This document shows positions 32,301 through 61,142 of a stretch of DNA of 64,000 nt, piece after piece. The position numbers and the translations under genes were made by a program. The notes below the pieces were generated by a model. The model made no database searches and was not told the DNA's origin. It saw only the letters and a list, made by a program, of their open reading frames with translations. This stretch comes from Desulfosudis oleivorans (lineage in GTDB: Bacteria > Desulfobacterota > Desulfobacteria > Desulfobacterales > SURF-7). Each line of letters begins with the position of its first letter. The stretch's first letter is position 1. The stretch covers positions 2,650-66,649 of the forward strand of contig DYJC01000016.1 in NCBI GenBank assembly GCA_020723305.1, written 5' to 3'.

Positions 32301-32424
32301 TGAGCCAATTTCAAAACTATTATAAAGCGTCACACCAGCGAAAGTCAGTGCTCAGAAAAGAGCTGAAAATACTGGATTTTCGTTTTCGCCGGAACTACAA
32401 CAAGAGACTTTTGAAATTGGCTCA
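32301..32424 (-). repeat. MITE-like repeat, copy H (shortened)
   Basis: Termini TGAGCCAATTTCAAAAC ... CTTTTGAAATTGGCTCA. The core has a degenerate GTCACACC(A)GCGAAAG hairpin module. It ends 25 nt before the moxR start. Confidence 0.8.
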
Positions 32425-32449
32425 GATCATTTTTCATTAGAGGAGTTCT

Positions 32450-33439
32450 ATGACAATCGACGTAAAACAGATCAGTGAAAAAGTGCAGATGGAAAGTCCG
32501 GTGATTCGCCGGATACGGGAGGAGATTCACAAGGTGATTGTCGGTCAGGAAAAGCTGATTGATGGTTTGTTGATTGCGCTTTTCTGCAACAATCATGTTT
32601 TGATCGAAGGGGTTCCGGGGCTTGCCAAAACGCTTTCGGTTACCACTCTTGCGGGAATGATTCAGGCGACCTTCCAGCGGATCCAGTTCACGCCGGATCT
32701 TCTGCCTGCGGATGTGATCGGAACGCTGATTTATAATCCCAAAACCGGTGATTTTTTGACCAAAAAAGGCCCCATCTTTGCCAATATTGTTCTGGCGGAT
32801 GAAATCAACCGTGCGCCGGCAAAGGTTCAGAGCGCTTTGCTTGAGGCCATGCAGGAACGTCAGGTTACGATCGGGGATACCAGCTATGGTCTGGATGATC
32901 CGTTTCTGGTGATGGCAACGCAGAATCCCATAGATCAGGAGGGGACATATCCGCTTCCGGAAGCGCAGGTTGACCGCTTTATGTTCAAACTCAAGGTTTC
33001 TTATCCTACAAAGGCACAGGAACATCTGATTCTGAAAAAAATGGCACGATCTATTCCGCAGACAGATGTGGAACCGGTCATGTCGCCGGAAGATATACGG
33101 AGGCTCCGGGCGCTTTCCGATGAAATTTATATGGATGAAAAAATTGAGGAATATATTGTCAATCTTGTGGAAGCCTCCCGGAATCCGGACGCATACGGGC
33201 TGGATATCGGTCAGTTGATACGATATGGCGCCTCTCCGCGGGCAACCATATTTCTTGCCATGGCATCCAGGGCAAATGCCTTGCTGGAGGGCCGTGGGTA
33301 TGTCACGCCGCAGGATGTAAAAACAGTGGCCATGAATGTGCTGCGGCACAGGATTGTGGTGACCTATGAAGCGGAAGCGGAAGAAAAAACATCGGAAGAT
33401 GTGGTTGAACAGATCCTTCAGAGTGTGGATGTGCCATGA
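32450..33439 (+). CDS. MoxR-family AAA+ ATPase
   Basis: 329 aa with AGGAG upstream. VIVGQEKLIDGLLIALFCNNHVLIEGVPGLAKT (Walker A) and VLADEINRAPAKVQSALLEAMQE (Walker B region). Its stop overlaps the next start. Confidence 0.9.
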   Translation: MTIDVKQISEKVQMESPVIRRIREEIHKVIVGQEKLIDGLLIALFCNNHVLIEGVPGLAKTLSVTTLAGMIQATFQRIQFTPDLLPADVIGTLIYNPKTGDFLTKKGPIFANIVLADEINRAPAKVQSALLEAMQERQVTIGDTSYGLDDPFLVMATQNPIDQEGTYPLPEAQVDRFMFKLKVSYPTKAQEHLILKKMARSIPQTDVEPVMSPEDIRRLRALSDEIYMDEKIEEYIVNLVEASRNPDAYGLDIGQLIRYGASPRATIFLAMASRANALLEGRGYVTPQDVKTVAMNVLRHRIVVTYEAEAEEKTSEDVVEQILQSVDVP

Positions 33440-34323
33440 TACCGGAAGAGCTGGTTAAAAAAATCCGGTACATCCAGATTTATACCAGTAAGGCTGTCAA
33501 CGACTCCCTTGCCGGTGAATATGAAAGCGTTTTCAAGGGCAGGGGCATGGAGTTTGATGAGGTGCGGGAGTATAAAATCGGGGATGAAATCCGTTCCATT
33601 GACTGGAATGTCACGGCCCGGATGGGTGAACCATATGTAAAACGGTTTGTGGAAGAAAGAGAGCTGACCGTTTTATTTCTTGTGGATCTATCCGCATCCG
33701 GGGATTTTGGAAGCAGAAAACAGTTAAAGAATGAGGTCGCTGCCGAACTTTGTGCGCTTCTTTCATTTTCAGCCATCAAGAATAACGACAAGGTCGGGTT
33801 GATTGTTTTTACAGACCAGATCGAAATGTTTATTCCTCCAGCCAAAGGGACCAGCCATGTGTTGAGACTCATCCGTGAATTACTTCAGTTTAAACCCAAG
33901 CAGAAAAAAACAGATATTGCTTCAGCCCTTGCTTATCTGGATCGGATTACCCATAAAAAGTGCGTTGTATTTCTGGTCTCTGATTTTATCGCAAATGATT
34001 TTCAAAAAAAACTGCGGATTATTGGACGGCGTCATGACCTCATTGCGGTTTCGATTACCGATCCTCATGAGATCCGGTTGCCGGATGTGGGGTTGATCGA
34101 ACTTGAGGATTCGGAAACCGGAGAGATGTTTCTGGTTGATACGGGCAGTGCAATGGTTCGAAAACAGTATGAAAAATATGGACAGGAGAGACAGCGGAAT
34201 CTGAAAAAGCTTTTTCAGTCCATGGGAATTGATCAGGTTGAAATTTTTACAGATGGCAATTTTGTCTTTGATCTTGTAAGGTTTTTTCGGACAAGGGAAA
34301 GACGAAGGAATGTTAGGGTATGA
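33436..34323 (+). CDS. DUF58 (vWA-like) protein, MoxR partner
   Basis: 295 aa. YESVFKGRGMEFDEVREYKIGDEIRSIDWNVTAR ... FLVDLSASGDFGS is typical of DUF58. Confidence 0.85.
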   Translation: MIPEELVKKIRYIQIYTSKAVNDSLAGEYESVFKGRGMEFDEVREYKIGDEIRSIDWNVTARMGEPYVKRFVEERELTVLFLVDLSASGDFGSRKQLKNEVAAELCALLSFSAIKNNDKVGLIVFTDQIEMFIPPAKGTSHVLRLIRELLQFKPKQKKTDIASALAYLDRITHKKCVVFLVSDFIANDFQKKLRIIGRRHDLIAVSITDPHEIRLPDVGLIELEDSETGEMFLVDTGSAMVRKQYEKYGQERQRNLKKLFQSMGIDQVEIFTDGNFVFDLVRFFRTRERRRNVRV

Positions 34324-34337
34324 TGTTATACCCCCTG

Positions 34338-34407
34338 TTACACCCCCCTGGCCCCCCTCGAGGGGGGAATTGCCTCAAGGGGGGAATGCCATAAAAAGGG
34401 GGGATTT
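34338..34407 (+). repeat. C6/G6 palindromic repeat locus R1
   Basis: Core CACCCCCCTGGCCCCCCTCGAGGGGGGAAT at 34341-34370, followed by degenerate half-units (CTCAAGGGGGGAAT, AAAAGGGGGGATT). Confidence 0.85.
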
Positions 34408-34421
34408 ATGAGGAGTGTGTG

Positions 34422-35930
34422 ATGCCAAATACGACTGAGATCTCCGGGGTAATTCTGGCTGCAGGAAGAGGGATGCGTGCCTATCCGAAAACCAAATATA
34501 TCCCCAAAGCCCTTCTGGAAGTGGATGGAAAGCCGCTGATCGAGAGAAATATCGAAATCATGCGGGATCAGCTTGGGGTGAAAAAAATCATTGTTGTTGT
34601 CGGGCATTATGGCAACCAGATACCGGAATACCTCAATCAGAAAAATATGGGGGTTGATTTCAGCTTCGTGGTTCAGAAACAGCAGAAGGGTATTGGGCAT
34701 GCATTGCTGATGGTGGAAGAGCATATCAAGGAAAGCCGTTTTATCGTGATGCTTGCCGATGAATTCTACATGGACTCCAATCATCGGGACATCCTTACAA
34801 TAATGGATCAGGGTACGGAAGCGGATGCAGTGCTGCTGTTCAAGCAGGTTACCAATCCTTCCTTGATTTCCAAAAATTTTACCGGAAACATCCAGCAGGG
34901 AAGGGTAAAATCTCTGATCGAAAAACCGGAAAACCCGACAACCGATCTCCTGGGTGTCGGGACCTATTTATTGAATCAAAAGGTTTTTCACTATATCAAG
35001 CAGACACCTCCGTCCGAACTGAGGCAGGAGGTCGAGATCACGGATGTTCTGTCCAATATGGCCAGGCAGGAGGTGGTGATGGCCTGCATGCTGGAAGGCA
35101 AATACCTGAACGTGAACAACACCGATGATCTGAATCAGGCAAACTATCTGATCCGGGAAAAGATGTTTTCCAGATACAAGGTCAGTGTTGTGATTCCTGC
35201 CTATAATGAAGAAAAAACAATTGAGGGTGTGGTCCAGGATTTTAAAAGTCACGGGGTGGTGAATGAGGTTGTGGTTGTGGATAACAACTCCATGGATAGA
35301 ACCTCAGAGATAGCTGAAAAAGCCGGGGCACGGGTTGTTCTTGAAATGGATCAGGGATACGGGTGCGCATTGCGGAGGGGTCTTGACGAGGCTGCCGGAG
35401 ATATTATTATTCTCACAGAAGCCGATGGAACCTTTCGCTCCAAGGATGTTCCAAAGTTCATGGAATATCTCAAGGATTGTGACATGGTGATCGGTACCCG
35501 AACCACACGGCAGATGATCGAGCAGGGTACAAATATGAAGGGACTTGTACGCTGGGTCAATGTGATTTTCGGAAAAATTATTGAATTATTATGGTGGAAT
35601 CAGGAACCCCGGTTCACGGATGTCGGATGTACCTACCGGGCCATATGGAAATCCAGTTATCAGCGGATACGGCCTTTGCTCAGCGCCAGAGGGCCGGAGT
35701 TTGCTCCGGAGATGATGATTGCGGTGCTGATCTGCAAACAAAGAATTATTGAGATTCCGGTGTCCTATCTTCAGCGTCTGGGCGGAGAATCCAAGCACTC
35801 CGGCCGGTTTTCAGCACTGGCCCGGACAGCTTTTAAAATGATGAAGGTGATATTGAAGTATCGGTTTTTTGCCGGAATTGTTTCGGAGATTCAGGCCCGG
35901 TTTCATACAGGCAGGTTTGTGGGGAAATAG
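34422..35930 (+). CDS. Fusion of sugar-1-phosphate nucleotidylyltransferase and DPM1/GtrB-like GT2
   Basis: ATG 34422 has AGGAG 6 nt upstream. The N-half GVILAAGRGMRAYPKTKYIPKALLEVDGKPLIE is the nucleotidyltransferase signature. The C-half has VSVVIPAYNEEKTIEGVV, VVVVDNNSMDRT and ILTEADGTF, which are GT2 motifs. Confidence 0.75.
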   Translation: MPNTTEISGVILAAGRGMRAYPKTKYIPKALLEVDGKPLIERNIEIMRDQLGVKKIIVVVGHYGNQIPEYLNQKNMGVDFSFVVQKQQKGIGHALLMVEEHIKESRFIVMLADEFYMDSNHRDILTIMDQGTEADAVLLFKQVTNPSLISKNFTGNIQQGRVKSLIEKPENPTTDLLGVGTYLLNQKVFHYIKQTPPSELRQEVEITDVLSNMARQEVVMACMLEGKYLNVNNTDDLNQANYLIREKMFSRYKVSVVIPAYNEEKTIEGVVQDFKSHGVVNEVVVVDNNSMDRTSEIAEKAGARVVLEMDQGYGCALRRGLDEAAGDIIILTEADGTFRSKDVPKFMEYLKDCDMVIGTRTTRQMIEQGTNMKGLVRWVNVIFGKIIELLWWNQEPRFTDVGCTYRAIWKSSYQRIRPLLSARGPEFAPEMMIAVLICKQRIIEIPVSYLQRLGGESKHSGRFSALARTAFKMMKVILKYRFFAGIVSEIQARFHTGRFVGK

Positions 35931-35984
35931 GTTATCGGTTTTCGGTTGACGGTTTTCGGTTAGCCGGTTTGCCGGTTGATGTCT

Positions 35985-36125
35985 TGTGCTAATTTCAAAA
36001 GTCTGTTTTTGTCATTCCGGCGAAGGCCGGAATCCAGTGAAGTGAAGTGCTATCCAGTATTTTCAATTCTTTTCTGGACACCGGCCTTCGCCGGTGTGAC
36101 GTTTTTTAATTTTTGAAATTGGCTC
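35985..36125 (+). repeat. MITE-like repeat, copy A
   Basis: TGTGCTAATTTCAAAAG ... GTCATTCCGGCGAAGGCCGGAATCC ... GGACACCGGCCTTCGCCGGTGTGAC ... TTTTGAAATTGGCTC. Confidence 0.85.
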
Positions 36126-36154
36126 GTCTTATTTGATATTGAACTGTAAAAAAA

Positions 36155-37174
36155 ATGAAACGAATTTGGATCAGACAGGTTTTTTCTGTTTTTTGGATGA
36201 TTGTCGGTGTTATCTTACTGATTTCCTGTGTGGATGATAGCAGCCGGCAGGTTGTTGAAAAAGATCCTGGAATTGAAAAGCTGTATGAAAAAGGGTCAAT
36301 CCAGGTTATCCTTTCCATTGACAAGAGCCGGATGACAACCGCTGAACGTATCCGCCTTTCGCTGACTGCTTTTTCTGATGAAAACACTTCCATTCAGTGG
36401 CCTTCTTTGGAGCAGTTTTTAGGTCAATTCAAGATTTTTGATTATTCCACTGCCCAGCCGGAGCTGGATGATAAAAACCGGAAAAAAACCGTCCGGACAT
36501 ATGTTCTGGAACCGTTTCTGGCTGGGGAATATATCATTCCTTCCATGAAGATCACGTTCGGGAAGGAAAGAGAGGGCAGCAAGGATAAAAATGAACTTGT
36601 TTTAATTGAAACCCAAGAGATCACCATTCCTGTCAAATCCGTACTCCCGGATACCCGGATGGATCGGAAGCCGAATGATATTAAACCGCCGGTTGATATT
36701 CCGCGATCCTATGTTTTCTGGATCTGGGTGATTGCGATGGTTGTTCTTTTATTGATTGTCACGATTTTTTTGGTGATCTGGTTCCGGAAAAAGAAGAAGG
36801 GGAATGATGCCGGAGAAGTAAGGCTGTCTGCTCATGAGATTGCATTTCGTGAGCTATCGAACCTGGCCATACCAACACAAATGGAAAAAATGGAGATCAA
36901 ACTTTTTTATCAGAAAATATCCGATATCCTGAGAAGATATATCGAGAACCGGTTCGGGGTGAATGCACCGGATCAGACAACGGAGGAGTTCCTGACAGGG
37001 ATGGATTTCCGGAACATCATCGAGCCTTCCCATAAACCGCTTTTGCGGAATTTTCTGGCTCAATGCGACCTGGTTAAGTTCGCGGAACACCGGCCTGGGA
37101 AAGAGGATATTGAAGAATCCTTTAACAAGTGCAGACATTTTATCAACCAGACCAAAATAGAACAGAATTTGTAA
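36155..37174 (+). CDS. DUF4381-like membrane protein with extra N-terminal lipoprotein domain
   Basis: 339 aa. Lipoprotein-like signal (VILLISC) and a ~180-aa N-domain. A single TM helix FWIWVIAMVVLLLIVTIFLVIWF is followed by KKKKG and AHEIAFRELSNL, as in DUF4381. It occupies the usual slot between DUF58 and batA. Confidence 0.55.
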   Translation: MKRIWIRQVFSVFWMIVGVILLISCVDDSSRQVVEKDPGIEKLYEKGSIQVILSIDKSRMTTAERIRLSLTAFSDENTSIQWPSLEQFLGQFKIFDYSTAQPELDDKNRKKTVRTYVLEPFLAGEYIIPSMKITFGKEREGSKDKNELVLIETQEITIPVKSVLPDTRMDRKPNDIKPPVDIPRSYVFWIWVIAMVVLLLIVTIFLVIWFRKKKKGNDAGEVRLSAHEIAFRELSNLAIPTQMEKMEIKLFYQKISDILRRYIENRFGVNAPDQTTEEFLTGMDFRNIIEPSHKPLLRNFLAQCDLVKFAEHRPGKEDIEESFNKCRHFINQTKIEQNL

Positions 37175-37180
37175 CTGACC

Positions 37181-38239
37181 ATGCACTTTGAATCGCCATT
37201 ATCATTTCTTCTTCTGCTCCTAATACCTTTTCTTTTATGGATCAGGCATCGAAGGGCAAAACCAGGAACGATCCGTTTCCCCTCGATACAGCATGCCGTG
37301 AAAGCGGGAAAATCGATCCGCCGACAATGGGTCTGGGTTCCTTCATTTCTTCGGGTTCTTGCACTTGTTTTTCTGACAATTGCCCTGGCAAGGCCCCAGA
37401 CCGGCTCAGAGCAGGTTCGGGATATCACCCAGGGTATTGCCATTGAGATGGTTGTGGATCGATCCGGCAGCATGGGGCAGGAGATGGAATACCGGGGAGT
37501 CAAAACAAACCGGCTGGAGGTGGTAAAACAGGTATTCAAGGAATTTCTGCTGGGAAATGAGGATGACCTCAAGGGAAGACCAAGCGATCTCATTGGAATC
37601 ATCTCTTTTGCAAGGTACCCGGATACAACCTGCCCGTTGACCCTGGCTCATGGTGCGCTCTCTCCCTTTATCGACAGCATCAAACTGGTTCAGACACGGG
37701 AGGAGGACGGAACCGCCATTGGAGATGCGCTTGCACTGGCGGCCGCGCGTCTGGAAAAAGTGGATGAAACAGTTGCTCTCCAAAGACAACAGGGAAATGA
37801 CAGCTACACCATTAAAAGCAGGATCATCATTCTATTGTCCGACGGTGAAAACAACAGAGGAAAACGGACTCCTCTGGAAGCAGCCGCGCTGGCAGCAAAA
37901 TGGGGTATAAAGGTCTATACGATCGCTATCGGAGGGGAGGATTCGGGAACCTCCATTCAGACGCCGTTTGGTGTTTATACAATTCCAGGCGGGCAAGGCG
38001 TTGATACAGAATCTCTCAAAGCGATCGCAAAACAGACCGGAGGTTCTTTTTATCAGGCGGAAGATGAGAAATCCCTTCGATCCATATATGAAGAGATTGA
38101 TAAAATGGAAAAAACAGAAATTGAATCCATTAAATATATTGACTACAAAGAGGTTTTTCTTCCGTTTGTTTATATGACGCTTTTTCTGATCGGGCTTGAA
38201 ATTCTGTTACGGGAAACCATCTTCAGGAAGATACCATGA
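37181..38239 (+). CDS. batA: vWA-domain membrane protein BatA
   Basis: 352 aa with N-terminal TM helices, MIDAS VVDRSGSMG and a C-terminal TM helix. Operon position follows DUF4381. Confidence 0.8.
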   Translation: MHFESPLSFLLLLLIPFLLWIRHRRAKPGTIRFPSIQHAVKAGKSIRRQWVWVPSFLRVLALVFLTIALARPQTGSEQVRDITQGIAIEMVVDRSGSMGQEMEYRGVKTNRLEVVKQVFKEFLLGNEDDLKGRPSDLIGIISFARYPDTTCPLTLAHGALSPFIDSIKLVQTREEDGTAIGDALALAAARLEKVDETVALQRQQGNDSYTIKSRIIILLSDGENNRGKRTPLEAAALAAKWGIKVYTIAIGGEDSGTSIQTPFGVYTIPGGQGVDTESLKAIAKQTGGSFYQAEDEKSLRSIYEEIDKMEKTEIESIKYIDYKEVFLPFVYMTLFLIGLEILLRETIFRKIP

Positions 38240-39255
38240 CCGGACTGCATCTGAACAACATTGAACAGCTTCATTTTCTATGGGTTGTATTGCCCCTGAT
38301 CGCTGTTTATATTTATGGCTGGTATCGGCGGAAAAAGGCGCTTGGAGATTTCATCGAGGCAGGACTTCTTCATAAAGTCCATATTTCGGCAACCAGCGGG
38401 TTCCGGCATCGCAAAATGATTCTGCTCCTGATTGCCGTAATCATGCTTGTGATTTCCATGACCCGGCCGGCCTGGAATTTTAAATCCGAGCGGATTGAAC
38501 GAAAAGGCCGTGATGTTGTTTTCCTTCTGGATGTCTCAAAAAGCATGCTGGCCGAGGATCTTGTACCCAATCGCCTGGAGCGGGCAAAACTCGCCATCGG
38601 GGATTGCGTGGATCAGCTTCAGGGAGATCGGGTCGCCCTGGTGGCCTTTGCCGGAACAGCTGCTGTGAAATGCCCGCTCACCCTGGATTATGGATTTTTC
38701 CGGATGATGCTGGACAGGATATCGACCGACAGCATTGAAAGAGGGGGAACAATGATCGGTGATGCAGTTCGAATGATACTTGCCGAGGTTCTGGACAATC
38801 AGGAGAAGGAATTCAAGGATATCATCCTGATCACGGACGGCGAGGATCATGAAAGCTTTCCGGTCGAGGCGGCAAAACAGGCTGGTGAAAAAGGTATCCG
38901 GATCATCGCAATCGGCTTAGGGGATGAAACAGAGGGCAAGCGGATCCCCATAACAACCGAACAGGGAACTCAAAAATTTCTGACCTACAAAGGACAGGAG
39001 ATCTGGACAAAGCTGGACGCCGCAACCCTGCGAAAGATGGTTCGGGAAACCCCCGGAGGGAAATATCTGAATGTTGCAACCGGAACCATCGATCTGGGAA
39101 AAGTATATCTGGATCTTGTGGCATCAGCAGCCAAAAAGGATCTGGAATCGGAAACCATCAAACGGTATGAGGAAAAATTTCAGGTTTTTTTGGGTGTTGC
39201 TTTTATTCTGATTTGTGTTGAAATGATTATGAGAGTAAAAGCAAAAGATAATTAA
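38236..39255 (+). CDS. batB: vWA-domain membrane protein BatB
   Basis: 339 aa. FLLDVSKSMLAEDLVPNRLERAKLAI contains the vWA MIDAS motif. The start overlaps the batA stop (ATGA). C-terminal TM helix. Confidence 0.8.
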   Translation: MTGLHLNNIEQLHFLWVVLPLIAVYIYGWYRRKKALGDFIEAGLLHKVHISATSGFRHRKMILLLIAVIMLVISMTRPAWNFKSERIERKGRDVVFLLDVSKSMLAEDLVPNRLERAKLAIGDCVDQLQGDRVALVAFAGTAAVKCPLTLDYGFFRMMLDRISTDSIERGGTMIGDAVRMILAEVLDNQEKEFKDIILITDGEDHESFPVEAAKQAGEKGIRIIAIGLGDETEGKRIPITTEQGTQKFLTYKGQEIWTKLDAATLRKMVRETPGGKYLNVATGTIDLGKVYLDLVASAAKKDLESETIKRYEEKFQVFLGVAFILICVEMIMRVKAKDN

Positions 39256-39286
39256 TATTCCCCCCTATATAATTGTGTCACATATA

Positions 39287-39343
39287 TTCCCCCCTTGAGG
39301 GGGGCGAAGGGGGGTGTCCTTGAGGGGGAATTAAAGGGGGATG
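39287..39343 (-). repeat. C6/G6 palindromic repeat locus R2 (inverted core plus half-units)
   Basis: ATTCCCCCCTTGAGGGGGGCGAAGGGGGGTG is the reverse complement of the R1 core with a few changes. It is followed by CCTTGAGGGGGAATTAAAGGGGGATG. Confidence 0.8.
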
Positions 39344-39390
39344 TAAATACTATGGTTTTTTCCAAAAAGTTACTATCGTGAATGGCTCAA

Positions 39391-39420
39391 CACCCCCCTG
39401 GCCCCCCTCCAGGGGGGAAT
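39391..39420 (+). repeat. C6/G6 palindromic repeat R3
   Basis: CACCCCCCTGGCCCCCCTCCAGGGGGGAAT, 53 nt upstream of the DUF559 start. Confidence 0.85.
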
Positions 39421-39472
39421 AAAAAATAAAAAATTCCAAATACGATTACCCAGGGAACCGGAGGAGCAGCCC

Positions 39473-53944: not shown

Positions 53945-54017
53945 GTCATTCCGGCGAAAACCGGAATCCAGTGATGTATTTCAATGGTTTCTGGACTCCG
54001 GTTTTCACCGGAGTGAC
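53945..54017 (+). repeat. MITE-like repeat, copy E (core only, no termini)
   Basis: GTCATTCCGGCGAAAACCGGAATCC ... CTGGACTCCGGTTTTCACCGGAGTGAC, in the opposite orientation to copy D, which lies 54 nt upstream. Confidence 0.75.
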
Positions 54018-54067
54018 GGAATGAGGACATTTTATGAGTTCATCAAGCCTGCAAGGTAGAAAAAACC

Positions 54068-55777: not shown

Positions 55778-55778
55778 A

Positions 55779-57002
55779 ATGGCTAAATTTTCGTACAAGG
55801 CGATCAATGAGCAGGGGGAAAATTTATCCGGTTCCATTGAGGCAGAGTCTTCGGAAATGGCTACCAATATATTGAGTGCAAGGGGTATCATCCCTCTTTC
55901 AGTAAGAGGAGAAGCAGGGGCCGGGGGCGGCGCTTCCCGTCTGGATGCTTTGAATGAATGGCTGACCCCTGTGAAAGCGCCGGATCTGATTATTTTCACC
56001 AAACAGTTCCGGACCTTGCTGAAATCCGGTGTGCCGATTGTTAAATTACTGGAGGTGGTGGGAAGCCAGACGGAAAATATCAAGCTGAAGAAGATCATTC
56101 ATTCCATGAACGATGATATCCGGGAAGGGGCAAGCCTGCATGATGTTTTTAGAAAACATCCAAAGGCATTTTCCCCCCTCTATTGCAGTATGATGAAAGC
56201 CGGAGAGGCAAGCGGCGCCTTGCCGGAGGTTCTGGAAAGGCTGGCGTTCATCATCGAACATGAACACAGGATAAAGTCGGATGTGAAATCCGCGCTTCAA
56301 TATCCGATGATTGTTATTGTTTTCCTTTGCGTTGCCTTTTTTGTGCTGTTAACGTTTGTGATTCCAAAATTCGTAAGGGTGTTTGTGAGCGCCGGGATTG
56401 ATCTGCCGATGCCCACCCGGATCTGCATGTTCATGTATGAGTTCATGGCAAATTACTGGGTTATTCTGGTTGGAGCCATTGTCTCCGGAGTGATTGCGCT
56501 GTTTTATTATACCAAGACAGAGCAGGGGAGCTATGTCCGGGATACGCTGTTTATGAAAATACCGGTTATCGGCACACTGTTTGTCAAGGCGGCCATGTCC
56601 AGGTTTGCAAGTATTTTTGCCATACTCCAGTCCAGCGGAGTGGATATCCTGGACTCCATGAAGATTCTTTCCGGAACCATCGGGAATCTTGCCATTGCAA
56701 GGGAGTTCCAGAACATTATTAACCGTCTGGAAGAGGGAAGAGGCATTGCCGAACCCTTGGCCAAAGCCAGGTATTTCACGCCGATTGTGATTAACATGAT
56801 TGCCATCGGAGAGGAGTCCGGAAACCTGGATGAGATGCTGGAGGAGATATCGGCTCATTATGATTTTGAACTGCAATATGCCATGAAGAAATTGTCCGAT
56901 GCCATTGGACCGATTTTAACCATCGGACTTGCCGCGGTAGTTGGTTTTTTTGCCCTGGCCATATTTTTGCCCATGTGGGATCTCACAAAGGTTGTGAAGT
57001 GA
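55779..57002 (+). CDS. GspF/PilC/MshG-family platform protein
   Basis: 407 aa with two GspF-type repeats and three hydrophobic regions. It starts 2 nt after the ATPase stop. Confidence 0.85.
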   Translation: MAKFSYKAINEQGENLSGSIEAESSEMATNILSARGIIPLSVRGEAGAGGGASRLDALNEWLTPVKAPDLIIFTKQFRTLLKSGVPIVKLLEVVGSQTENIKLKKIIHSMNDDIREGASLHDVFRKHPKAFSPLYCSMMKAGEASGALPEVLERLAFIIEHEHRIKSDVKSALQYPMIVIVFLCVAFFVLLTFVIPKFVRVFVSAGIDLPMPTRICMFMYEFMANYWVILVGAIVSGVIALFYYTKTEQGSYVRDTLFMKIPVIGTLFVKAAMSRFASIFAILQSSGVDILDSMKILSGTIGNLAIAREFQNIINRLEEGRGIAEPLAKARYFTPIVINMIAIGEESGNLDEMLEEISAHYDFELQYAMKKLSDAIGPILTIGLAAVVGFFALAIFLPMWDLTKVVK

Positions 57003-57084
57003 TGTGTTGATGTTATCGAGGAAAAATTTTTGAGATAATCAGCTAGCCGGGAAAGCCATACCGGCAAAACGATTTGCTGTATTT

Positions 57085-57229
57085 TGAGCCAATTTCAAAA
57101 GTCTGTTGTTGTCATTCCGGCGAAAGCCGGACACACAGTGAAGCCTTGCGCTATCCAGTATTTTTAGTTCTTTTCTGGACACCGGCTTTCGCCGGTGTGA
57201 CGTCTTTTGATAGTTTTGAAAATAGCTCT
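57085..57229 (+). repeat. MITE-like repeat, copy F
   Basis: TGAGCCAATTTCAAAAG ... GTCATTCCGGCGAAAGCCGGACAC ... GGACACCGGCTTTCGCCGGTGTGAC ... TTTTGAAAATAGCTC. It lies about 75 nt upstream of the pilin gene. Confidence 0.85.
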
Positions 57230-57303
57230 TTTGATAAATTGATTGTTTTTTTTTTGAAATTGAATATACTGTGAGTATCTAAAATCTTGGGAGGGATTTT
57301 TTG

Positions 57304-57696
57304 ATGAAGAAACGAAATCTGGTAAAAAATGAAGAGGGTTTTACGCTGGTTGAGATTATCGCTGTTCTGGTTATCCTTGGAATTTTAGCAGCCGTGGCCA
57401 TACCAAAGTATTTTGATCTTCAGAAAGAGGCAAAAGAAAAAGCCCTTACTGCAGCGATGTCAGAGGCGATTTCAAGGGTTAACGGCCATTTTGGTAAGCA
57501 ACTCCTTTCCGGTTCAGCATGGAATACGATTACCTACAGCAACGCAACCCTGGGAGATGATCTGGGAGATTTTACACTCAATGTGACCAATGCTTCCGGT
57601 AATTCAATCACCCTGACGGTTACGGCAAAACCAGGCAGGGCAGCTGATGGCGCTACCATACCACCCAAGACCATACCCAAACCCGGGTCAATTTAG
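57304..57696 (+). CDS. Type IV pilin / pseudopilin (probable major subunit)
   Basis: GGGAGGG lies 8 nt upstream of ATG 57304. Prepilin motif KNEEG|FTLVEIIAVLVILGILAAVAIPKY with Glu5. 130 aa, no Cys pair, and a Pro/Thr/Lys-rich C-terminal tail. Confidence 0.8.
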   Translation: MKKRNLVKNEEGFTLVEIIAVLVILGILAAVAIPKYFDLQKEAKEKALTAAMSEAISRVNGHFGKQLLSGSAWNTITYSNATLGDDLGDFTLNVTNASGNSITLTVTAKPGRAADGATIPPKTIPKPGSI

Positions 57697-57763
57697 ATTT
57701 TTTAACCATCTGGTTTTAGAAAAGGGAGATGTTTTGATGAAAGCATATGAAACAGCGCCCTTT

Positions 57764-59875
57764 TTATTTTTTTTCTATTTTCTTTTGCCCCCTATTCAGG
57801 AGCAGTCGATCCTTCTGATAGGATTGAATGACAGGCTGCAAGACAGCCAAATCCGGAAGATAGATCTTTGTTTCGGGATTTTTCATGGATAACCTGATCT
57901 GTTCCATTATGGACAGGCCCTGTTTGTTTTTCATCAGGCTGTCCAAATGGTGCCGGCAATTTCCGGTTTGGCCGAGCCGGGCATGCAATTCAATCAGGGC
58001 AAGGTGTGCCTGCGGAAAGTCCGGTTCCGATTCACTTACCTGATTCCAGATGGAAATCGATTTTTCCCATTCTTTTCTTTTCCGGTAAATTTCAGCCATT
58101 GCAATCCGATAATCCGTCTGATCCGGATCAAGAATTGTAACTTTCCGTATGGCTTCCAGTGCGCTGTCCAGTTTGTTTTCTTTCAATAAAATAACGCTTT
58201 TTGCAAACAGAAGGTCTGGATTATCCGGCCAGAAAGAAAGTGCATGTTCGACTAGACCCATGGCTTTTTGGCGATCGCCCTGTATCATATGGATACGGGA
58301 AAGTTCTGCCCAGATATAGGGAGAACCATTGTTGATATGTAGCGCTTCCTCAAAGGCGGATCCGGCTTTGCTGTACTGTCTTGTCACATATGCATCATGC
58401 AGCGCCTTATTGAATATCAGGGTCCGGTGCTGAATTTTATTGTTAAACCGGTTTATCTTTTCCGCCTTTTCCAGCATCCGGATCGATTCTTCCGTACGGC
58501 CGATCTCCCACAAACTTCTTCCCAGATTGAGGAAAGGCGTACTCAAGTTCGGGGATTTCCTGCTGTTATCCTGCCAGAGGCGGACGCCGGATAAAAAAAG
58601 ATGGTTCCGCATGTAGGTTGTATGGGACTGTGATACAAGAAGGATGATTCCAGCGATTAAGAAAAGGGTTCGCATGAATCTGGTTTTGGACAGGTGGTCA
58701 ATTGGTCTCGTCAGCATGATCGCAAAAATCAGAAAAAAGAAGATGGAGGGTAAATAGTTCCGGTGCTCATAGATCAGTTCAAGGGGAAGAAAGGAGCCCT
58801 CGATCAGATGATTGAAAATAAAAAAAAGAATCCCGAAACCGATAACCGGATATTTCCGGGAAGAATACACGCCAAAGTACAGGAAGGAACACAGAAGGGC
58901 GATAGAGGGCAGGGTCGACCATGGGGAAAACAGGCTCCGGGAGATTTCAATATCATGAAGGAGTGTAAACCCGGAGCTGACCGGATAAAGCAGAAGCGAG
59001 ATATAAAAAATGATTACCCTGGGTTCGGTCAGAAGCCGTTCCAGCATCGTAAAATACCGGATCTTATACCCGTTTAAAATAGAGGCCGGAGAAAAAAGAA
59101 ATGATCCCAAGATCAGCATGCCGGTCAGGATCAACAGAAAAAGCAGGATATGTTTTTTGTTTTTTTCTTGCGGTAACCCTTGAATGATGATGACGTCATA
59201 TAAAAAGATTGAAATTGGAAGCATCAGGGCATTTTCTTTGCCGGCAATGGCTAAAATGCCTGCGAGCATAAATAAAAGAAACCCGATTCCTTTTTGTTTT
59301 GCTTCCGCATGCACCCGGAAAAAGATGTAGAATAGCATGGACAGGATATAAAACATGGCAGACATGGATGCCATTCTTTGCACAATATAGGTTACGGCTG
59401 TGACCTGAATGGGGTGGGAAGCCCAGAAAAGGGTGGAGAAAAGAGAAATCGGGTAGATATTTTTCAGAGAATCCGTTGCCGGGTTCTGAAGTTTCAGCGT
59501 AATATGGATCAATAAAAACAGAAGAATGGATGTAATGCAGTGAATTGTAAGATTGACGATATGATATCCAAATGTATTATTCCGGCTGAAGTAATAATTC
59601 AAGGCAAAGGTCAGATAGGATAACGGCCGTGTATCATAGGTATGATTCAGTTTTTTCCCATACAGGATGTTTTTTAGGGAATCCAATGAAAATTCCCGCA
59701 GATGGATATTGGGATTATCTGTGATGTTCAAAAAGTCGTCATAGTGGAAGGGAGCGTGGAAACTGTTGCTGTAGATTATGAGCAGCAAAATCAGAATGGC
59801 CGTAACGGCAAACAGACCTTCCCTTGCTGTGGGGAGAAGAATACGATTTTTTGTCATAGGGTAATATCGGGGCAT
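57764..59875 (-). CDS. TMTC-like GT-C glycosyltransferase with C-terminal TPR array (fourth paralog)
   Basis: 703 aa with APFHYDDFLNITDNPNI, YHIVNLTIHCITS and HPIQVTAVTYIVQRMASMS, then TPRs in the C-terminal ~270 aa. It is convergent with the pilin gene. Confidence 0.75.
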   Translation of the reverse strand: MPRYYPMTKNRILLPTAREGLFAVTAILILLLIIYSNSFHAPFHYDDFLNITDNPNIHLREFSLDSLKNILYGKKLNHTYDTRPLSYLTFALNYYFSRNNTFGYHIVNLTIHCITSILLFLLIHITLKLQNPATDSLKNIYPISLFSTLFWASHPIQVTAVTYIVQRMASMSAMFYILSMLFYIFFRVHAEAKQKGIGFLLFMLAGILAIAGKENALMLPISIFLYDVIIIQGLPQEKNKKHILLFLLILTGMLILGSFLFSPASILNGYKIRYFTMLERLLTEPRVIIFYISLLLYPVSSGFTLLHDIEISRSLFSPWSTLPSIALLCSFLYFGVYSSRKYPVIGFGILFFIFNHLIEGSFLPLELIYEHRNYLPSIFFFLIFAIMLTRPIDHLSKTRFMRTLFLIAGIILLVSQSHTTYMRNHLFLSGVRLWQDNSRKSPNLSTPFLNLGRSLWEIGRTEESIRMLEKAEKINRFNNKIQHRTLIFNKALHDAYVTRQYSKAGSAFEEALHINNGSPYIWAELSRIHMIQGDRQKAMGLVEHALSFWPDNPDLLFAKSVILLKENKLDSALEAIRKVTILDPDQTDYRIAMAEIYRKRKEWEKSISIWNQVSESEPDFPQAHLALIELHARLGQTGNCRHHLDSLMKNKQGLSIMEQIRLSMKNPETKIYLPDLAVLQPVIQSYQKDRLLLNRGQKKIEKK

Positions 59876-59965
59876 CTGCTTCGAGGTAAATTTTGTTTAT
59901 TGTTGCGTATGTATATATCTGTTTCAGGATCAGAGTCAATATGACCTGCAACAGAAACATTACAC

Positions 59966-59994
59966 TTGACAGGAATAGGTAAAAACGTACTAAT
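59966..59994 (+). promoter_or_regulatory. Weak candidate sigma70-type promoter for the minor pilin genes
   Basis: TTGACA at 59966-59971, a 17-nt spacer, then ACTAAT at 59989-59994. The -10 matches only 4 of 6 positions. Pattern match only. Confidence 0.2.
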
Positions 59995-60071
59995 ACAATT
60001 GGTTTTGGATTCATTTTCAAATAAACATCGTGTTGTCCAGAAAAATGCAACCATGACTGAAAAAAACATGA

Positions 60072-60581
60072 ATGCCTGAACAGATGAGACAATCAGCCCA
60101 TAATATTTTTCCTCCGCGCAGCCCAGATGGATTTACCGTAATTGAACTTATCGCGGTACTGGTCATGATCAGCGTGATCAGCGCGGTCATTCTGGGACGG
60201 ATGGGTGGGGATATAAAGGCGGATCTTGACGCACGAACCGACACCTTGAAAGCACATCTCCGGTATGCCCAGTCAAGGGCGATGGATTCAGATCTGATCT
60301 GGGGAATCCGGTATACCGGAACAGGATATTTTCTTTTTTCTTTTAACGGGAGTTCACAATCTGCGATTCGTATACCGGATGAGGAGAATGTGATTGTTGA
60401 TCTTTCAGGCAATGGAATCAGCCTGGGCTCTTTTCAGGCAATTTCATTTGATTCATGGGGAAGCCCATATGCAAATGCCACAGGAACCGGTTCTTCTGCC
60501 GGACAGACAATTGTTGTTTCTGACGGAAGCAACCCCCTGAATTCGATTGCAGTCACAAAAAATACAGGATTTATCCAATGA
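60072..60581 (+). CDS. Minor prepilin-type protein (GspH/FimT-like)
   Basis: 169 aa. Prepilin motif SPDG|FTVIELIAVLV. LKAHLRYAQSRAMDSD resembles GspH/FimT-type minor pilins. Confidence 0.7.
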   Translation: MPEQMRQSAHNIFPPRSPDGFTVIELIAVLVMISVISAVILGRMGGDIKADLDARTDTLKAHLRYAQSRAMDSDLIWGIRYTGTGYFLFSFNGSSQSAIRIPDEENVIVDLSGNGISLGSFQAISFDSWGSPYANATGTGSSAGQTIVVSDGSNPLNSIAVTKNTGFIQ

Positions 60582-61000
60582 TGAAAAAAAGAACCGCATT
60601 CCATTATGACCAAAGGGGTTTTACGCTTCTGGAGGTCATTATTACCCTGGTGATCGCTGCGATCTTTGGAAGCATGCTGATACAGTTTACCGGCACAAGC
60701 ATGTCCAGAAGCGCTGATACGGTTGAGCGGGTCAGAAACGGAAGCACACTTGTCCGGACGATTGAATCGATCACAAAAGATTATCGAAGCTGGATACAAA
60801 ACAATCCGGATGATCCCCTGGTCAATTTTAAAAATACAATCGATGCCTCCTATGGAGGAGGAAATATTGCCGTCCAAACGGTTTTTTCAGATGTTGATTC
60901 CGGAATGGATACGGATGTTGAAATACTCTGGGTCACGGTCTCCGAACTGGATGAAGGCCTGAATGTCAGGCAATCCCTGGTTACACTTTTTACCAGATGA
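60578..61000 (+). CDS. Minor prepilin-type protein
   Basis: 140 aa with DQRG|FTLLEVIITLVIAAIF. The start overlaps the upstream stop (ATGA). Its stop TGA is the first 3 nt of MITE copy G. Confidence 0.7.
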   Translation: MMKKRTAFHYDQRGFTLLEVIITLVIAAIFGSMLIQFTGTSMSRSADTVERVRNGSTLVRTIESITKDYRSWIQNNPDDPLVNFKNTIDASYGGGNIAVQTVFSDVDSGMDTDVEILWVTVSELDEGLNVRQSLVTLFTR

Positions 61001-61142
61001 GCCAATTTCAAAACGATTGAAAAGTGTCACACCGGCGAAAGCCGATGTCCAGAAAGGAACTGAAAATATTGGATAGTGTTACACTTTACTTCGTGTCCGG
61101 CTTTCGCCGGAACTTCAACAACAGACTTTTGAAATTGGCTCA
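60998..61142 (-). repeat. MITE-like repeat, copy G
   Basis: TGAGCCAATTTCAAAACG ... GTCACACCGGCGAAAGCCGATGTCC ... GTCCGGCTTTCGCCGGAAC ... CTTTTGAAATTGGCTCA. Confidence 0.85.

What the first reader, a model, noticed from the sequence alone, without database searches (positions are those of the whole stretch)
32301..61142. Nine copies of a ~140-bp MITE-like element concentrated in the pilus cluster
Seen: copies lie at 32301, 35985, 43989, 46579, 49178, 53751, 53945, 57085 and 60998. The consensus termini are TGAGCCAATTTCAAAAG ... CTTTTGAAATTGGCTCA. The core has two inverted modules. GTCATTCCGGCGAA(A/G)GCCGGAATCC is an 8-bp stem ATTCCGGC/GCCGGAAT with a GAAA/GAAG loop. GGACACCGGC(C/T)TTCGCCGGTGTGAC is an 8-bp stem ACACCGGC/GCCGGTGT. 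Both orientations occur. Seven of the nine copies occupy gaps between pilus genes: before and after the first ATPase, after the PilO-like gene, after the ExeA-like gene (two copies), after gspF, and after the second minor pilin. They generate spurious ORFs (VIPAKAGIQ / FWTPAFAGVT peptides). Established: REP/BIME, ERIC and Neisseria Correia elements of this size act as terminators, RNase targets, mRNA stabilisers or promoters. Inference: these elements probably segment the pilus operon transcriptionally and tune subunit stoichiometry. No cognate transposase lies in the window.
Basis: partly seen in the sequence, partly recalled or inferred. Interest (0 to 1): 0.65.

Follow-up and report, generated by a model that had tools for sequence, protein, structure and literature searches.

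The report
Hairpin-carrying miniature transposon in pilus cluster
The repeats are real copies of a small non-coding transposon that recently inserted between genes of two operons in a sulfate-reducer-type bacterium. Its core is a pair of hairpins of a known repeat class (NTS/CGTC-REP-like), and nothing shows that it regulates the pilus genes.

Summary
Seven copies are one MITE family (type A, 122-143 bp). The 43989 copy has the same ends but an unrelated core (type B). The 53945 copy lacks the terminal repeats and is a different element.

True ends are GAGCC...GGCTC, flanked by 4-bp target-site duplications. Syntenic clusters in three relatives (89-92% ATPase identity) have empty sites. Related copies lie on unrelated contigs of other Desulfobacteraceae MAGs, so this is a dispersed mobile family, not a local duplication.

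The same 17-nt end bounds a 1.4-kb insertion sequence in Lentisphaeria. That element encodes an IS5/IS1182-like DDE transposase and also makes 4-bp duplications. No intact parent was found in Desulfobacteraceae.

The core hairpins match published CGTC-1 REP / Neisseria NTS / Ssn-related motifs: 10 matches in the window against 0.1 expected by chance. Identical hairpins directly flank small GIY-YIG nuclease genes in metagenome contigs. Type A is therefore a DDE-type MITE carrying a head-to-head dimer of these hairpins.

The proposed role in segmenting the operon is unsupported. Relatives lack the copies, orientation is unbiased (3 versus 4), and the hairpins have decayed in most copies. I call it a new variant of a known kind, of moderate interest.

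The parts
32302..32423 (-). Type-A MITE, 122-bp subfamily (core lacks 21 nt). TSD AGAT at 32298-32301 and 32424-32427. It lies 26 bp upstream of the MoxR start at 32450.
   Evidence: It is 93% identical to L041:1393-1514. No intact hairpin remains.
35986..36125 (+). Type-A MITE, subfamily A1, with both hairpins intact. TSD GTCT at 35981-35984 and 36126-36129, with an extra T at 35985. It lies between the NTP-transferase/GT2 gene and the DUF4381 gene of the Bat-type operon.
   Evidence: (long hairpin, -73.9 kcal/mol, z -12). The site is empty in L119, which has a 67-bp gap there.
43989..44130 (.). Type-B MITE: same termini, unrelated core, no SRM hairpins. Flanks are TGTA and TATA (3 of 4 match). 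Its first base completes the TAG stop of the TPR gene 43102-43989.
   Evidence: (81-94% identical to copies in many Desulfobacteraceae MAGs, e.g. L106, L034, L031). The site is empty, with a TAA stop, in L119, L121 and L123.
46580..46721 (+). Type-A MITE, subfamily A1, with mutated termini. TSD AAAT at 46576-46579 and 46722-46725. The last T of the TSD plus the element's GA form the ATPase stop codon at 46579-46581. The sense-strand hairpin is followed by a T-run.
   Evidence: The site is empty in L119, L121 and L123, where the gap is 24-25 bp. The ATPase is 719 aa here and in the close relatives.
49179..49319 (-). Type-A MITE, subfamily A2, with only hairpin B intact. TSD ATAT at 49175-49178 and 49320-49323. 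It lies between the 182-aa gene and the T2SSB-like gene.
   Evidence: L119 has a 10-bp gap here.
53752..53890 (-). Type-A MITE, subfamily A1, with both hairpins intact. TSD ACTT at 53748-53751 and 53891-53894. It lies after the ExeA-like AAA_22 gene.
   Evidence: It is 96% identical to copy 35986 over 102 nt (I4).
53914..54046 (+). A separate element: a head-to-head dimer of SRM/CGTC hairpins (53944-54018) without GAGCC termini. It is bracketed by inverted arms TTGATGGTTTCGTAAAA and TTTTATGAGTTCATCAA, upstream of the second ATPase.
   Evidence: An orthologous copy is in L121:19126-19200. It is absent from L119.
57086..57228 (+). Type-A MITE, subfamily A2, with only hairpin B intact. TSD TTTT at 57082-57085 and 57229-57232. 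It lies between gspF and the first pilin gene. The sense-strand hairpin is followed by a T-run.
   Evidence: The short-read contig L001 of the same organism ends inside this copy.
60999..61141 (-). Type-A MITE, subfamily A2, with both hairpins mutated. TSD AGAT at 60995-60998 and 61142-61145. The T of the TSD plus the element's GA form the pilin stop codon at 60998-61000; the inferred pre-insertion stop was TAG.
   Evidence: It is 93% identical to L011 and L088, which is closer than to its neighbours in the window.
32450..43989 (+). Host context 1: a MoxR/DUF58/BatA/BatB/TPR/BatD-type operon, with NTP-transferase/GT2 and DUF559 genes inserted in it.
   Evidence: Pfam.
44422..61733 (+). Host context 2: an MSHA/T2SS-like type IV pilus cluster. 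It encodes two GspE/MshE-type ATPases, a PilM-like protein, a secretin, an ExeA-like protein, GspF and four prepilin-type genes. One TPR gene is on the minus strand.
   Evidence: Pfam.

Best explanation
The copies are a non-autonomous transposon family (MITE) of Desulfobacteraceae.

Each copy ends in a 15-16-nt inverted repeat, GAGCCAATTTCAAAA(G/C). A DDE transposase of the IS5/IS1182 kind, supplied from elsewhere in the genome, binds these ends and inserts the element with a staggered cut that leaves a 4-bp duplication. The payload between the ends varies:
- nothing (31-33-bp mini-elements);
- an unrelated 110-nt core (type B);
- in type A, a head-to-head dimer of CGTC-1 REP / NTS-like / Ssn-related hairpins.

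These same hairpins elsewhere directly flank small GIY-YIG (ssnA-like) nuclease genes.

The composite transposes as one unit through its ends. The hairpins are passenger sequence and decay in most sublineages.

In this genome at least eight independent insertions, from at least four subfamilies, landed in short A/T-rich spacers of two operons. Three sit exactly on a stop codon, which the element's terminal GA/G rebuilds, so the proteins are unchanged.

Shown: the ends, the duplications, the empty sites, the dispersal, the motif class, and an insertion sequence with the same ends.

Inferred: which transposase acts in this genome, that the hairpin dimer was captured rather than ancestral, and that the insertions are tolerated rather than selected.
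For: Ends and duplications:
- Seven of eight end-bearing copies in the window have a perfect 4-bp duplication, and the eighth matches at 3 of 4 positions.
- 27 pairs across the window and other genomes have perfect 4-bp duplications of varied sequence.

Empty sites:
- L119 (90% ATPase identity), L121/L122 (89%) and L123 (92%) keep the same gene order with none of these insertions.

Dispersal:
- Full-length type-A copies (84-93% identical) occur in Desulfobacterium sp. SW.3.97, Desulfocicer vacuolatum and Desulfocicer sp. MAGs.
- Type B occurs in about 15 more MAG loci.
- All 12 full-length type-A copies examined there are intergenic, mostly between co-directional genes.
- Short-read contigs of the same organism break inside copies.

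Independent origin of the window copies:
- Copy 60999 is 93% identical to L011/L088 but 83-88% to its neighbours.
- Copy 32302 is 93% identical to L041.

Cognate insertion sequence:
- The same 17-nt end bounds a 1.4-kb element in Lentisphaeria (L017, L050, L099).
- It encodes a 371-aa DDE_Tnp_1 + DUF772 transposase; the two elements whose flanks were read (L017, L099) have 4-bp duplications GATT and ATAT.
- In a Desulfobacteraceae MAG (L105) the same end is followed by an N-terminal relic homologous to that transposase.
- Mini-elements made of the two ends alone carry duplications AACT and GAAT.

Hairpin class:
- 10 matches to the published SRM pattern in the window against 0.1 in shuffles, all inside the elements.
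- 25 of 28 positions match the Neisseria NTS consensus, with one compensatory stem pair (PMC11893778).
- The CGTC-1 features are all present (PMC3733652).
- Identical hairpins flank 95-97-aa GIY-YIG ORFs in L237, L161 and L147.
- Only 1 of 120 metagenome loci with these hairpins has the GAGCC ends.

Hairpins are dispensable for spread:
- All 12 copies from other genomes, and two in the window, have mutated hairpins but intact ends and duplications.
Against: - No intact cognate transposase was found in the window or in any Desulfobacteraceae DNA reached. The link to the Lentisphaeria element rests on identity of the ends and on the duplication length.
- That transposase scores below the NCBIfam cut-offs for both the IS1182 and IS5 models.
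- The direction of evolution is not resolved: hairpin dimer captured by a pair of ends, or hairpin dimer inserted into a mini-element.
- Nine insertions in 29 kb and none in the first 32 kb is a local excess that neutral insertion does not by itself explain.
Confidence: 0.8

Rival explanations
1. Regulatory reading. The elements are retained because their hairpins act as terminators, RNase targets or mRNA stabilisers. On this reading they split the pilus operon into differently expressed segments.
For: - Every copy folds into a very stable hairpin (-55 to -74 kcal/mol, z -6 to -12).
- The best terminator-like hits of the region are the ACACCGGC hairpin followed by GACG and a T-run. This faces the sense direction in copies 35986, 46580 and 57086.
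- All copies sit at gene boundaries.
- REP and MITE hairpins have such effects in other bacteria (PMC10969869, PMC3184786).
Against: - Three relatives run the same gene order without any of these copies.
- Orientation is 3 '+' and 4 '-'.
- The T-run starts 4 nt after the stem.
- The hairpins are mutated in many copies.
- No type-A copy in other genomes lies near pilus or Bat genes.
- Two copies are in a different operon.
- Downstream genes keep their own ribosome-binding sites and must still be transcribed through the element.
Confidence: 0.12
2. Ssn-linked reading. The intact hairpins are working targets of a host Ssn (GIY-YIG) single-strand nuclease. Blocks of the form 'hairpin - genes - hairpin' around pilus genes would modulate recombination of incoming single-stranded DNA, as reported for NTS in Neisseria.
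For: - There are 10 pattern-conforming hairpins, one per strand in each intact dimer. They bracket successive gene blocks from 46.6 to 57.2 kb.
- A related lineage (L121) independently carries five hairpin dimers without the GAGCC ends in gaps of the same cluster.
- Identical hairpins flank ssnA-like genes in metagenome loci.
- In Neisseria, NTS repeats cluster next to surface-protein genes, and the NTS-gene-NTS arrangement lowers transformation (PMC11893778).
Against: - No ssnA-like gene was found in the window or in any Desulfobacteraceae locus.
- The hairpins are decayed in most type-A copies, including every copy from other genomes.
- The closest relatives (L119, L123) have almost none.
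- Competence of this organism is unknown.
Confidence: 0.1
3. The elements are REP/REPIN-type repeats moved by a tyrosine (RAYT) transposase, or by Ssn itself, and the outer inverted repeats are incidental.
For: - The core is a head-to-head dimer of short palindromes, like a REPIN.
- Dimers without the GAGCC ends exist in the window (53944-54018) and in L121.
- 41 head-to-head dimers were counted in the metagenome loci, only one of which has these ends.
Against: - Copies with the ends always carry 4-bp duplications, which single-strand HUH transposition does not produce (established knowledge of IS200/IS605-type elements, from memory).
- Type-B and end-only mini-elements move without any hairpin.
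- Copies with ruined hairpins still spread.
- The tag is CGTC/TGTC, not the GTAG of RAYT-linked REPs.
- CGTC REPs have no associated transposase gene (PMC3733652).
- There is no Y1 transposase in the window.
Confidence: 0.04
4. The copies arose by local duplication or recombination within this region, not by transposition.
For: Nine copies lie within 29 kb and none in the preceding 32 kb.
Against: - Each copy has its own 4-bp duplication.
- The copies belong to at least four subfamilies.
- Some are closer to copies in other genomes than to their neighbours in the window.
- The flanking sequences are unrelated.
Confidence: 0.01

Closest known systems
Bacterial MITEs such as Chunjie (Geobacter uraniireducens), Nezha (cyanobacteria) and QMITE2 (Coxiella)
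   Same: Short, non-coding, with terminal inverted repeats, target-site duplications and a stable hairpin fold. Mostly intergenic and inserted inside operons without breaking genes. Size variants occur, as do truncated copies that look like REPs (PMC10969869, PMC3184786).
   Different: - The ends differ, and the duplication is 4 bp (Chunjie: 21-bp ends and 9-bp duplications).
- The host clade is different.
- The type-A core is a dimer of CGTC/SRM hairpins rather than remnant IS sequence.
CGTC-1 REPs (Di Nocera et al. 2013, PMC3733652), including Neisseria dRS3 and Rickettsia RPE-6
   Same: - The tag is CGTC or TGTC.
- The stem is 8 bp and starts with A-T.
- The loop is 4 nt and the tail is CCA.
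- The units form head-to-head dimers with the tags outward, and they are extragenic.
- That paper also notes that all H. neapolitanus CGTC-1 dimers sit inside a 41-bp palindrome.
   Different: - Here the surrounding palindrome is shown to be the ends of a DDE-type transposon, with duplications and empty sites.
- That paper records no dedicated transposase for CGTC REPs.
- The second stem position of module B is C-G rather than T-A.
Neisseria Transformation Sequence / Ssn-related motifs with SsnA nucleases (PMC11893778)
   Same: - 25 of 28 positions match the NTS consensus, and the hairpins fit the SRM search pattern.
- The same hairpins flank 95-97-aa single-domain GIY-YIG genes in environmental contigs, the published NTS-ssnA-NTS layout.
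- The hairpins cluster around genes for surface structures.
   Different: - No Ssn gene was seen in the DNA available for this organism.
- The hairpins here travel inside a MITE.
- No cleavage or transformation data exist.
Correia/NEMIS elements of Neisseria
   Same: MITEs of 100-150 bp placed between genes. They are known to affect transcription and RNA processing.
   Different: - Correia elements duplicate TA and have about 26-bp ends of different sequence (from memory).
- Here the duplication is 4 bp of varied sequence.
- Correia cores are not CGTC hairpin dimers.
REPIN/RAYT systems
   Same: Two inverted palindromes that can fold separately or as one long hairpin, probably derived from the flanks of a nuclease or transposase gene.
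   Different: - The tag is CGTC, not GTAG.
- There is no RAYT.
- Movement leaves 4-bp duplications and depends on the outer inverted repeats.
IS5 / IS1182 families of insertion sequences
   Same: The 1.4-kb Lentisphaeria element with the same end encodes one DDE_Tnp_1 + DUF772 transposase with a Y-2-R-3-E-6-K signature, has GAG termini, and makes 4-bp duplications.
   Different: It scores below the NCBIfam family cut-offs (IS1182: 107 bits against 270; IS5_4: 70 against 140), so its family is not settled. It was also found in a different phylum.

Membership tests
MITE (bacterial miniature inverted-repeat transposable element) | Short (under about 300 bp), with no coding capacity | tested here: met
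   Copies are 122-143 bp. Only spurious ORFs cross them.
MITE (bacterial miniature inverted-repeat transposable element) | Terminal inverted repeats | tested here: met
   The 15-16-nt end GAGCCAATTTCAAAA(G/C) is present at both ends of 8 copies.
MITE (bacterial miniature inverted-repeat transposable element) | Target-site duplication of fixed length | tested here: met
   The duplication is 4 bp: perfect in 7 of 8 window copies and in 27 pairs overall, with varied sequence.
MITE (bacterial miniature inverted-repeat transposable element) | Many dispersed copies, with empty sites in relatives | tested here: met
   Copies occur on unrelated contigs of other MAGs. Sites are empty in L119, L121 and L123. 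Copy number in the source genome was not measurable.
MITE (bacterial miniature inverted-repeat transposable element) | Ends shared with an autonomous IS that supplies the transposase | tested here: inconclusive
   The same 17-nt end is on a 1.4-kb IS in Lentisphaeria that also makes 4-bp duplications. Only a relic was found in Desulfobacteraceae. The source genome beyond the window could not be searched.
CGTC-1 REP (Di Nocera 2013) | Unpaired CGTC (or TGTC) tag at one end | tested here: met
   The tag is TGTC on module A and CGTC on module B.
CGTC-1 REP (Di Nocera 2013) | 8-bp stem with A/T in the first two positions, 4-nt loop, CCA tail | tested here: met
   Module A is ATTCCGGC-GAAG-GCCGGAAT-CCAG. 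Module B is ACACCGGC-GAAR-GCCGGTGT-CCAG, which departs at the second stem position. This holds for 10 hairpins only; the others are mutated.
CGTC-1 REP (Di Nocera 2013) | Mostly head-to-head dimers (tags outward), extragenic | tested here: met
   All intact pairs have their tags outward and are intergenic. 41 head-to-head dimers were counted in the metagenome loci.
Ssn-related motif (SRM/NTS) with Ssn nuclease | Match to the published SRM search pattern, enriched over shuffles | tested here: met
   10 matches against a mean of 0.1 in 50 dinucleotide shuffles.
Ssn-related motif (SRM/NTS) with Ssn nuclease | The motif flanks a small single-domain GIY-YIG (ssnA) gene | tested here: met
   This is met in other DNA, not in the window. 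L237, L161 and L147 carry 95-97-aa PF01541 ORFs with the same hairpins on both sides.
Ssn-related motif (SRM/NTS) with Ssn nuclease | The host genome encodes an Ssn homologue | not testable with these tools
   None was found in the window or the Desulfobacteraceae loci.
Ssn-related motif (SRM/NTS) with Ssn nuclease | Strand-specific cleavage of single-stranded DNA next to the motif | not testable with these tools
   This needs a biochemical assay.
REPIN / RAYT | GTAG-tagged REPs and an associated tyrosine (Y1) transposase gene | tested here: not met
   The tag is CGTC/TGTC. No Y1 transposase appears among the window ORFs scanned.
Correia / NEMIS | TA target duplication and Correia-type ends | tested here: not met
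   The duplications are 4 bp of varied sequence and the ends are unrelated. The Correia features are recalled from memory.
IS5 or IS1182 family (for the element that shares the ends) | Transposase reaches the family model's curated cut-off | tested here: not met
   The Pfam domains DDE_Tnp_1 and DUF772 pass. NCBIfam IS1182 scores 107 bits against 270, and IS5_4 scores 70 against 140. The element works like these families but is not placed in either.
Intrinsic terminator | G+C-rich hairpin immediately followed by a U-tract, facing the direction of transcription | tested here: inconclusive
   The scan flags the hairpin-B module in the sense direction in 3 copies, but the T-run starts 4 nt after the stem. 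There are no transcript data.

The most novel reading that the evidence does not exclude
The type-A element is a vehicle that spreads Ssn-related (CGTC/NTS-like) hairpin dimers by borrowing a DDE transposase. This would be one answer to how these repeats, which have no transposase of their own, proliferate. In this genome the intact copies would place Ssn cut sites on both strands around successive blocks of type IV pilus genes. That arrangement could modulate recombination of incoming single-stranded DNA at a surface-structure locus, as NTS does in Neisseria.
Probability: 0.12. Interest if true: 0.7.

Novelty: new variant of a known kind. Interest (0 to 1): 0.42.

Why it matters
MITEs are ordinary, and this one is probably a tolerated selfish element. 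That matters practically: it breaks short-read assemblies, creates false ORFs and false start codons, and should not be read as a regulatory feature of the pilus operon without RNA data.

The less ordinary point is the architecture. Ends of a DDE-type insertion sequence enclose a head-to-head dimer of CGTC-REP / NTS-like hairpins. That hairpin class was reported to lack a dedicated transposase (2013). In 2025 it was tied to the Ssn family of single-strand nucleases.

If the capture reading is right, this family gives a concrete and testable route by which such hairpins move to new loci. It also links three repeat classes that are usually treated separately.

Tried and rejected
- **Parent IS in Desulfobacteraceae.** tblastn of the Lentisphaeria transposase against the window and all loci found only the three Lentisphaeria elements. 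A protein search with the L105 relic returned only three short relics. A protein search with the full transposase returned thousands of unnamed metagenomic homologues with no way to pick host taxa.
- **Source contig.** Look-ups by exact protein returned only 2.6-3.1-kb Logan contigs of SRR13164373, not the 133-kb NCBI contig. Genome-wide copy number is therefore unknown.
- **Rfam.** No family matched at gathering threshold anywhere in the window.
- **Literature.** A search for the terminal sequence gave nothing. A search for MITEs in Desulfobacter gave nothing relevant. The supplement of the Ssn paper is not held.
- **ssnA in the window or loci.** Crude GIY-YIG regex scans found nothing in the window or the loci held at that point, and tblastn with the three metagenomic GIY-YIG proteins against the window and all loci hit only their own loci.
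- **3-bp duplication with TG...CA ends (IS3-like).** Considered and rejected, because the flanks match only with 4 bp and GAGCC ends.
- **Type B as a deletion derivative of the Lentisphaeria IS.** Considered and rejected, because there is no similarity beyond the ends.
- **Outward promoters.** The TTGAAA in the ends gives promoter-like hits at only 2 of 16 ends, and total hits are at background level.

Full report

Yes. The 17-nt terminus occurs 10 times at up to 2 mismatches, against 0.06 expected. The two hairpin modules occur 5 and 6 times against 0 expected. The repeat finder recovers the families independently.

Reading each copy and aligning them gives the following.
- Seven copies are type A, 122-143 bp: 32302, 35986, 46580, 49179, 53752, 57086 and 60999.
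- The copy at 43989 has the same termini but an unrelated core (type B).
- The copy at 53945 has the two hairpins but lacks the termini.

The window copies fall into subfamilies:
- A1: 35986, 46580, 53752.
- A2: 49179, 57086, 60999.
- A 122-bp form: 32302.
- Type B: 43989.

**2. Gene context**

Positions 32450-43989 form a MoxR/DUF58/BatA/BatB/TPR/BatD-type operon. Positions 44422-61733 form an MSHA/T2SS-like type IV pilus cluster with two GspE-type ATPases, a PilM-like protein, a secretin, an ExeA-like protein, GspF and four prepilin genes. Two copies therefore lie in the Bat-type operon, one lies at the junction, and six lie in the pilus cluster. The first 29 kb encode TPR proteins and sugar-modifying enzymes and carry an IS66 remnant at 18072-18890. 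No transposase related to these elements is in the window.

**3. It is a transposon**

With the ends set at GAGCC...GGCTC, the flanks are direct 4-bp repeats: AGAT, GTCT, AAAT, ATAT, ACTT, TTTT and AGAT. Type B has TGTA/TATA.

Across the window and other genomes, 27 end-pairs have perfect 4-bp duplications of varied sequence.

Three syntenic loci keep the same gene order with none of these insertions. They come from relatives whose first ATPase is 90% (L119, GCA_043825835.1), 89% (L121/L122) and 92% (L123) identical. The ATPase-to-PilM gap is 24-25 bp in those relatives and 171 bp here, a difference of about 146 bp (the 142-bp element plus its 4-bp duplication).

The family is dispersed:
- A collection scan for the terminus found full-length type-A copies (84-93% identical) on separate contigs of Desulfobacterium sp. 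SW.3.97, Desulfocicer vacuolatum and Desulfocicer sp. MAGs.
- The same scan found type-B copies in about 15 other loci, mostly from Desulfobacteraceae MAGs.
- All 12 full-length type-A copies examined in other genomes are intergenic, usually between co-directional genes, and one overlaps a stop codon.
- None of the 13 type-A loci from other genomes is near Bat or pilus genes.

Copy 60999 is closer to L011 and L088 (93%) than to its neighbours in the window. Copy 32302 is 93% identical to L041. The window copies are therefore independent arrivals from a diversified pool.

Short-read contigs of the same organism (SRR13164373) end inside copies. That is what a multi-copy repeat does to an assembly.

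**4. Insertions on stop codons**

The ORFs ending at 43989, 46581 and 61000 take part of their stop codon from the element's first bases. Removing the element and one copy of the duplication restores TAA, TGA and TAG. The ATPase is 719 aa here and in its close relatives, so its length is unchanged. For the other two ORFs this is inferred from the rebuilt stop codons. The ATG at 46636 lies inside a copy. The real PilM-like start is the TTG at 46753, giving 612 aa as in L119.

**5. Who moves it?**

The same 17 nt, TGAGCCAATTTCAAAAG, bound a 1.4-kb insertion sequence in Lentisphaeria (L017, L050, L099). It carries one 371-aa ORF with Pfam DDE_Tnp_1 and DUF772 domains and a Y-2-R-3-E-6-K motif. 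L017 and L099, whose flanks were read, have 4-bp duplications GATT and ATAT.

NCBIfam places the protein nearest IS1182 and IS5 but below both cut-offs. I therefore call it IS5/IS1182-like without assigning a family.

In a Desulfobacteraceae MAG (L105) the same end is followed by a truncated N-terminus homologous to this transposase (37% over 54 aa, E 1e-5). No intact Desulfobacteraceae copy was found.

Elements of 31-33 bp made of the two ends alone, with duplications AACT and GAAT, occur in a delta-proteobacterial MAG (L020, L024).

The ends are therefore the mobile chassis and the interior is variable: nothing, the type-B core, the type-A core, or a transposase gene.

**6. What is the type-A core?**

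The hairpins read (C/T)GTC, then an 8-bp stem, GAAR, the stem complement, then CCAG. They are arranged head to head with the tags outward. This is the published definition of CGTC-1 REPs, a class that includes Neisseria dRS3 and that 'apparently lack[s] a dedicated transposase' (PMC3733652).

The hairpins match the Neisseria Transformation Sequence consensus at 25 of 28 positions, with one compensatory stem pair. They also fit the degenerate 'Ssn-related motif' pattern of PMC11893778. There are 10 matches in the window, all inside the elements, against 0.1 in dinucleotide shuffles.

A metagenome scan with this hairpin variant returned 120 loci containing 189 hairpins and 41 head-to-head dimers. 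Only one locus had the GAGCC ends.

Three of those loci carry a 95-97-aa single-domain GIY-YIG ORF (PF01541, E about 1e-15 to 1e-17) flanked on both sides by these hairpins. L237 is flanked by exactly module A and L161 by exactly module B. That is the NTS-ssnA-NTS layout described for Ssn nucleases.

The hairpin family is therefore much broader than the MITE. Type A is a composite: DDE-type ends around a dimer of Ssn-related hairpins.

Di Nocera et al. noted that all H. neapolitanus CGTC-1 dimers sit inside a 41-bp palindrome. The present case shows that such an outer palindrome can be a pair of transposon ends.

**7. The hairpins are cargo**

- Only copies 35986, 46580 and 53752 keep both hairpins within the pattern.
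- Copies 49179 and 57086 keep one.
- Copies 32302 and 60999, and all 12 copies from other genomes, keep none.

All of them nevertheless retain good ends and duplications, and they share subfamily-specific hairpin mutations. Spread therefore does not need intact hairpins.

The whole element folds as one long hairpin in which module A pairs with module B. That is usual for MITEs.

**8. Does it regulate the pilus operon?**

Nothing here shows that it does. The relatives lack the copies, orientation is 3 versus 4, the association with pilus genes is not seen elsewhere, and the hairpins decay.

A terminator-like module (8-bp stem with 6 G-C pairs, then GACG and a T-run) faces the sense direction in three copies and tops the terminator scan. 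Polar or stabilising side effects are therefore possible and need RNA data. Promoter-like hits are at background level.

**9. What remains odd**

There are nine elements in 29 kb and none in the preceding 32 kb, which has about as many intergenic gaps.

A related lineage (L121) has independently accumulated five hairpin dimers without the GAGCC ends in gaps of the same cluster. One of them is orthologous to the window's 53944-54018 dimer.

These gaps may simply be permissive. Alternatively, hairpins around these genes may be favoured, as proposed for NTS next to surface-protein genes in Neisseria. I give the second reading about 0.1.

**10. Verdict**

- The repeat observation is confirmed with corrections.
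- 'MITE' is confirmed.
- The regulatory interpretation is not supported.
- The closest known kinds are bacterial MITEs for the mechanism and CGTC-1 REP / NTS / SRM for the core.
- The nested combination was not found in the literature searched here.
- I rate it a new variant of a known kind, with interest about 0.4.

Noticed in passing
window 34339-34371, 39285-39319, 39389-39421, 39890-39922, 42827-42859, 42962-42996, 49900-49932; DUF559 ORF 39473-39937: A second repeat family of about 33 nt, built of C6/G6 runs (for example ACACCCCCCTGGCCCCCCTCGAGGGGGGAAT, with the hairpin CCCCCC-TCGA-GGGGGG). Two direct copies bracket a DUF559 (Vsr-like endonuclease) gene whose C-terminus runs into the repeat. 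The gene, and the repeats that bracket it, are absent from the syntenic loci L119 and L121. The layout repeat-nuclease-repeat recalls NTS-ssnA-NTS and REP-RAYT-REP.
   Followed up: partly
window 53914-54046; L121:2795, 9687-9753, 14611-14681, 17357-17427, 19126-19200: Head-to-head dimers of the same hairpin class without the GAGCC ends. They have varied, compensating stems (ATGCCGGA, ATTCTGAC, ATTCCGTC, ACTCCGGT). A recurring motif TTTTTACGAnnnCATCAA lies next to them, inverted on both sides in the window and direct on both sides at L121:9665/9766. It may mark a further element family.
   Followed up: partly
L237:1290-1580(-), L161:1149-1436(+), L147:799-1092(-): Small GIY-YIG genes (95-97 aa) immediately flanked by head-to-head hairpins identical to modules A and B of the window. 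These are environmental examples of the SRM-ssnA-SRM unit.
   Followed up: partly
L020:3913-3945, L024:4198-4230: Elements of 31-33 bp consisting only of the two terminal repeats, each with a 4-bp duplication (AACT, GAAT). They are either minimal transposable units or internal-deletion products.
   Followed up: partly
window 18072-18890 (-): An IS66 remnant: a TnpB_IS66 domain fused to the first 109 positions of DDE_Tnp_IS66. It is unrelated to the MITE ends.
   Followed up: no
L001 (= window 53993-57114) and L118: Short-read (Logan, SRR13164373) contigs of the same organism start and stop inside the repeat copies. The pilus cluster is therefore fragmented into 2.6-3.1-kb pieces in that assembly.
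   Followed up: yes
Many Lentisphaeria/Victivallales, Treponema/Spirochaetales and Verrucomicrobiota loci among L004-L117 (e.g. L014, L032, L016, L052, L057, L081, L110): The same terminus bounds other 107-178-bp MITE-like elements with different cores in distant phyla. Some have perfect 4-bp duplications, and some carry a nested 40-bp end-pair. The IS family and its MITE derivatives appear to be widespread.
   Followed up: partly
window 5158-5287 vs 14149-14278, and 1133-1203 vs 14388-14458: Inverted repeats of 130 nt (77% complementary) and 71 nt (70%) between TPR-protein genes on opposite strands. These are probably paralogous TPR coding sequence.
   Followed up: no
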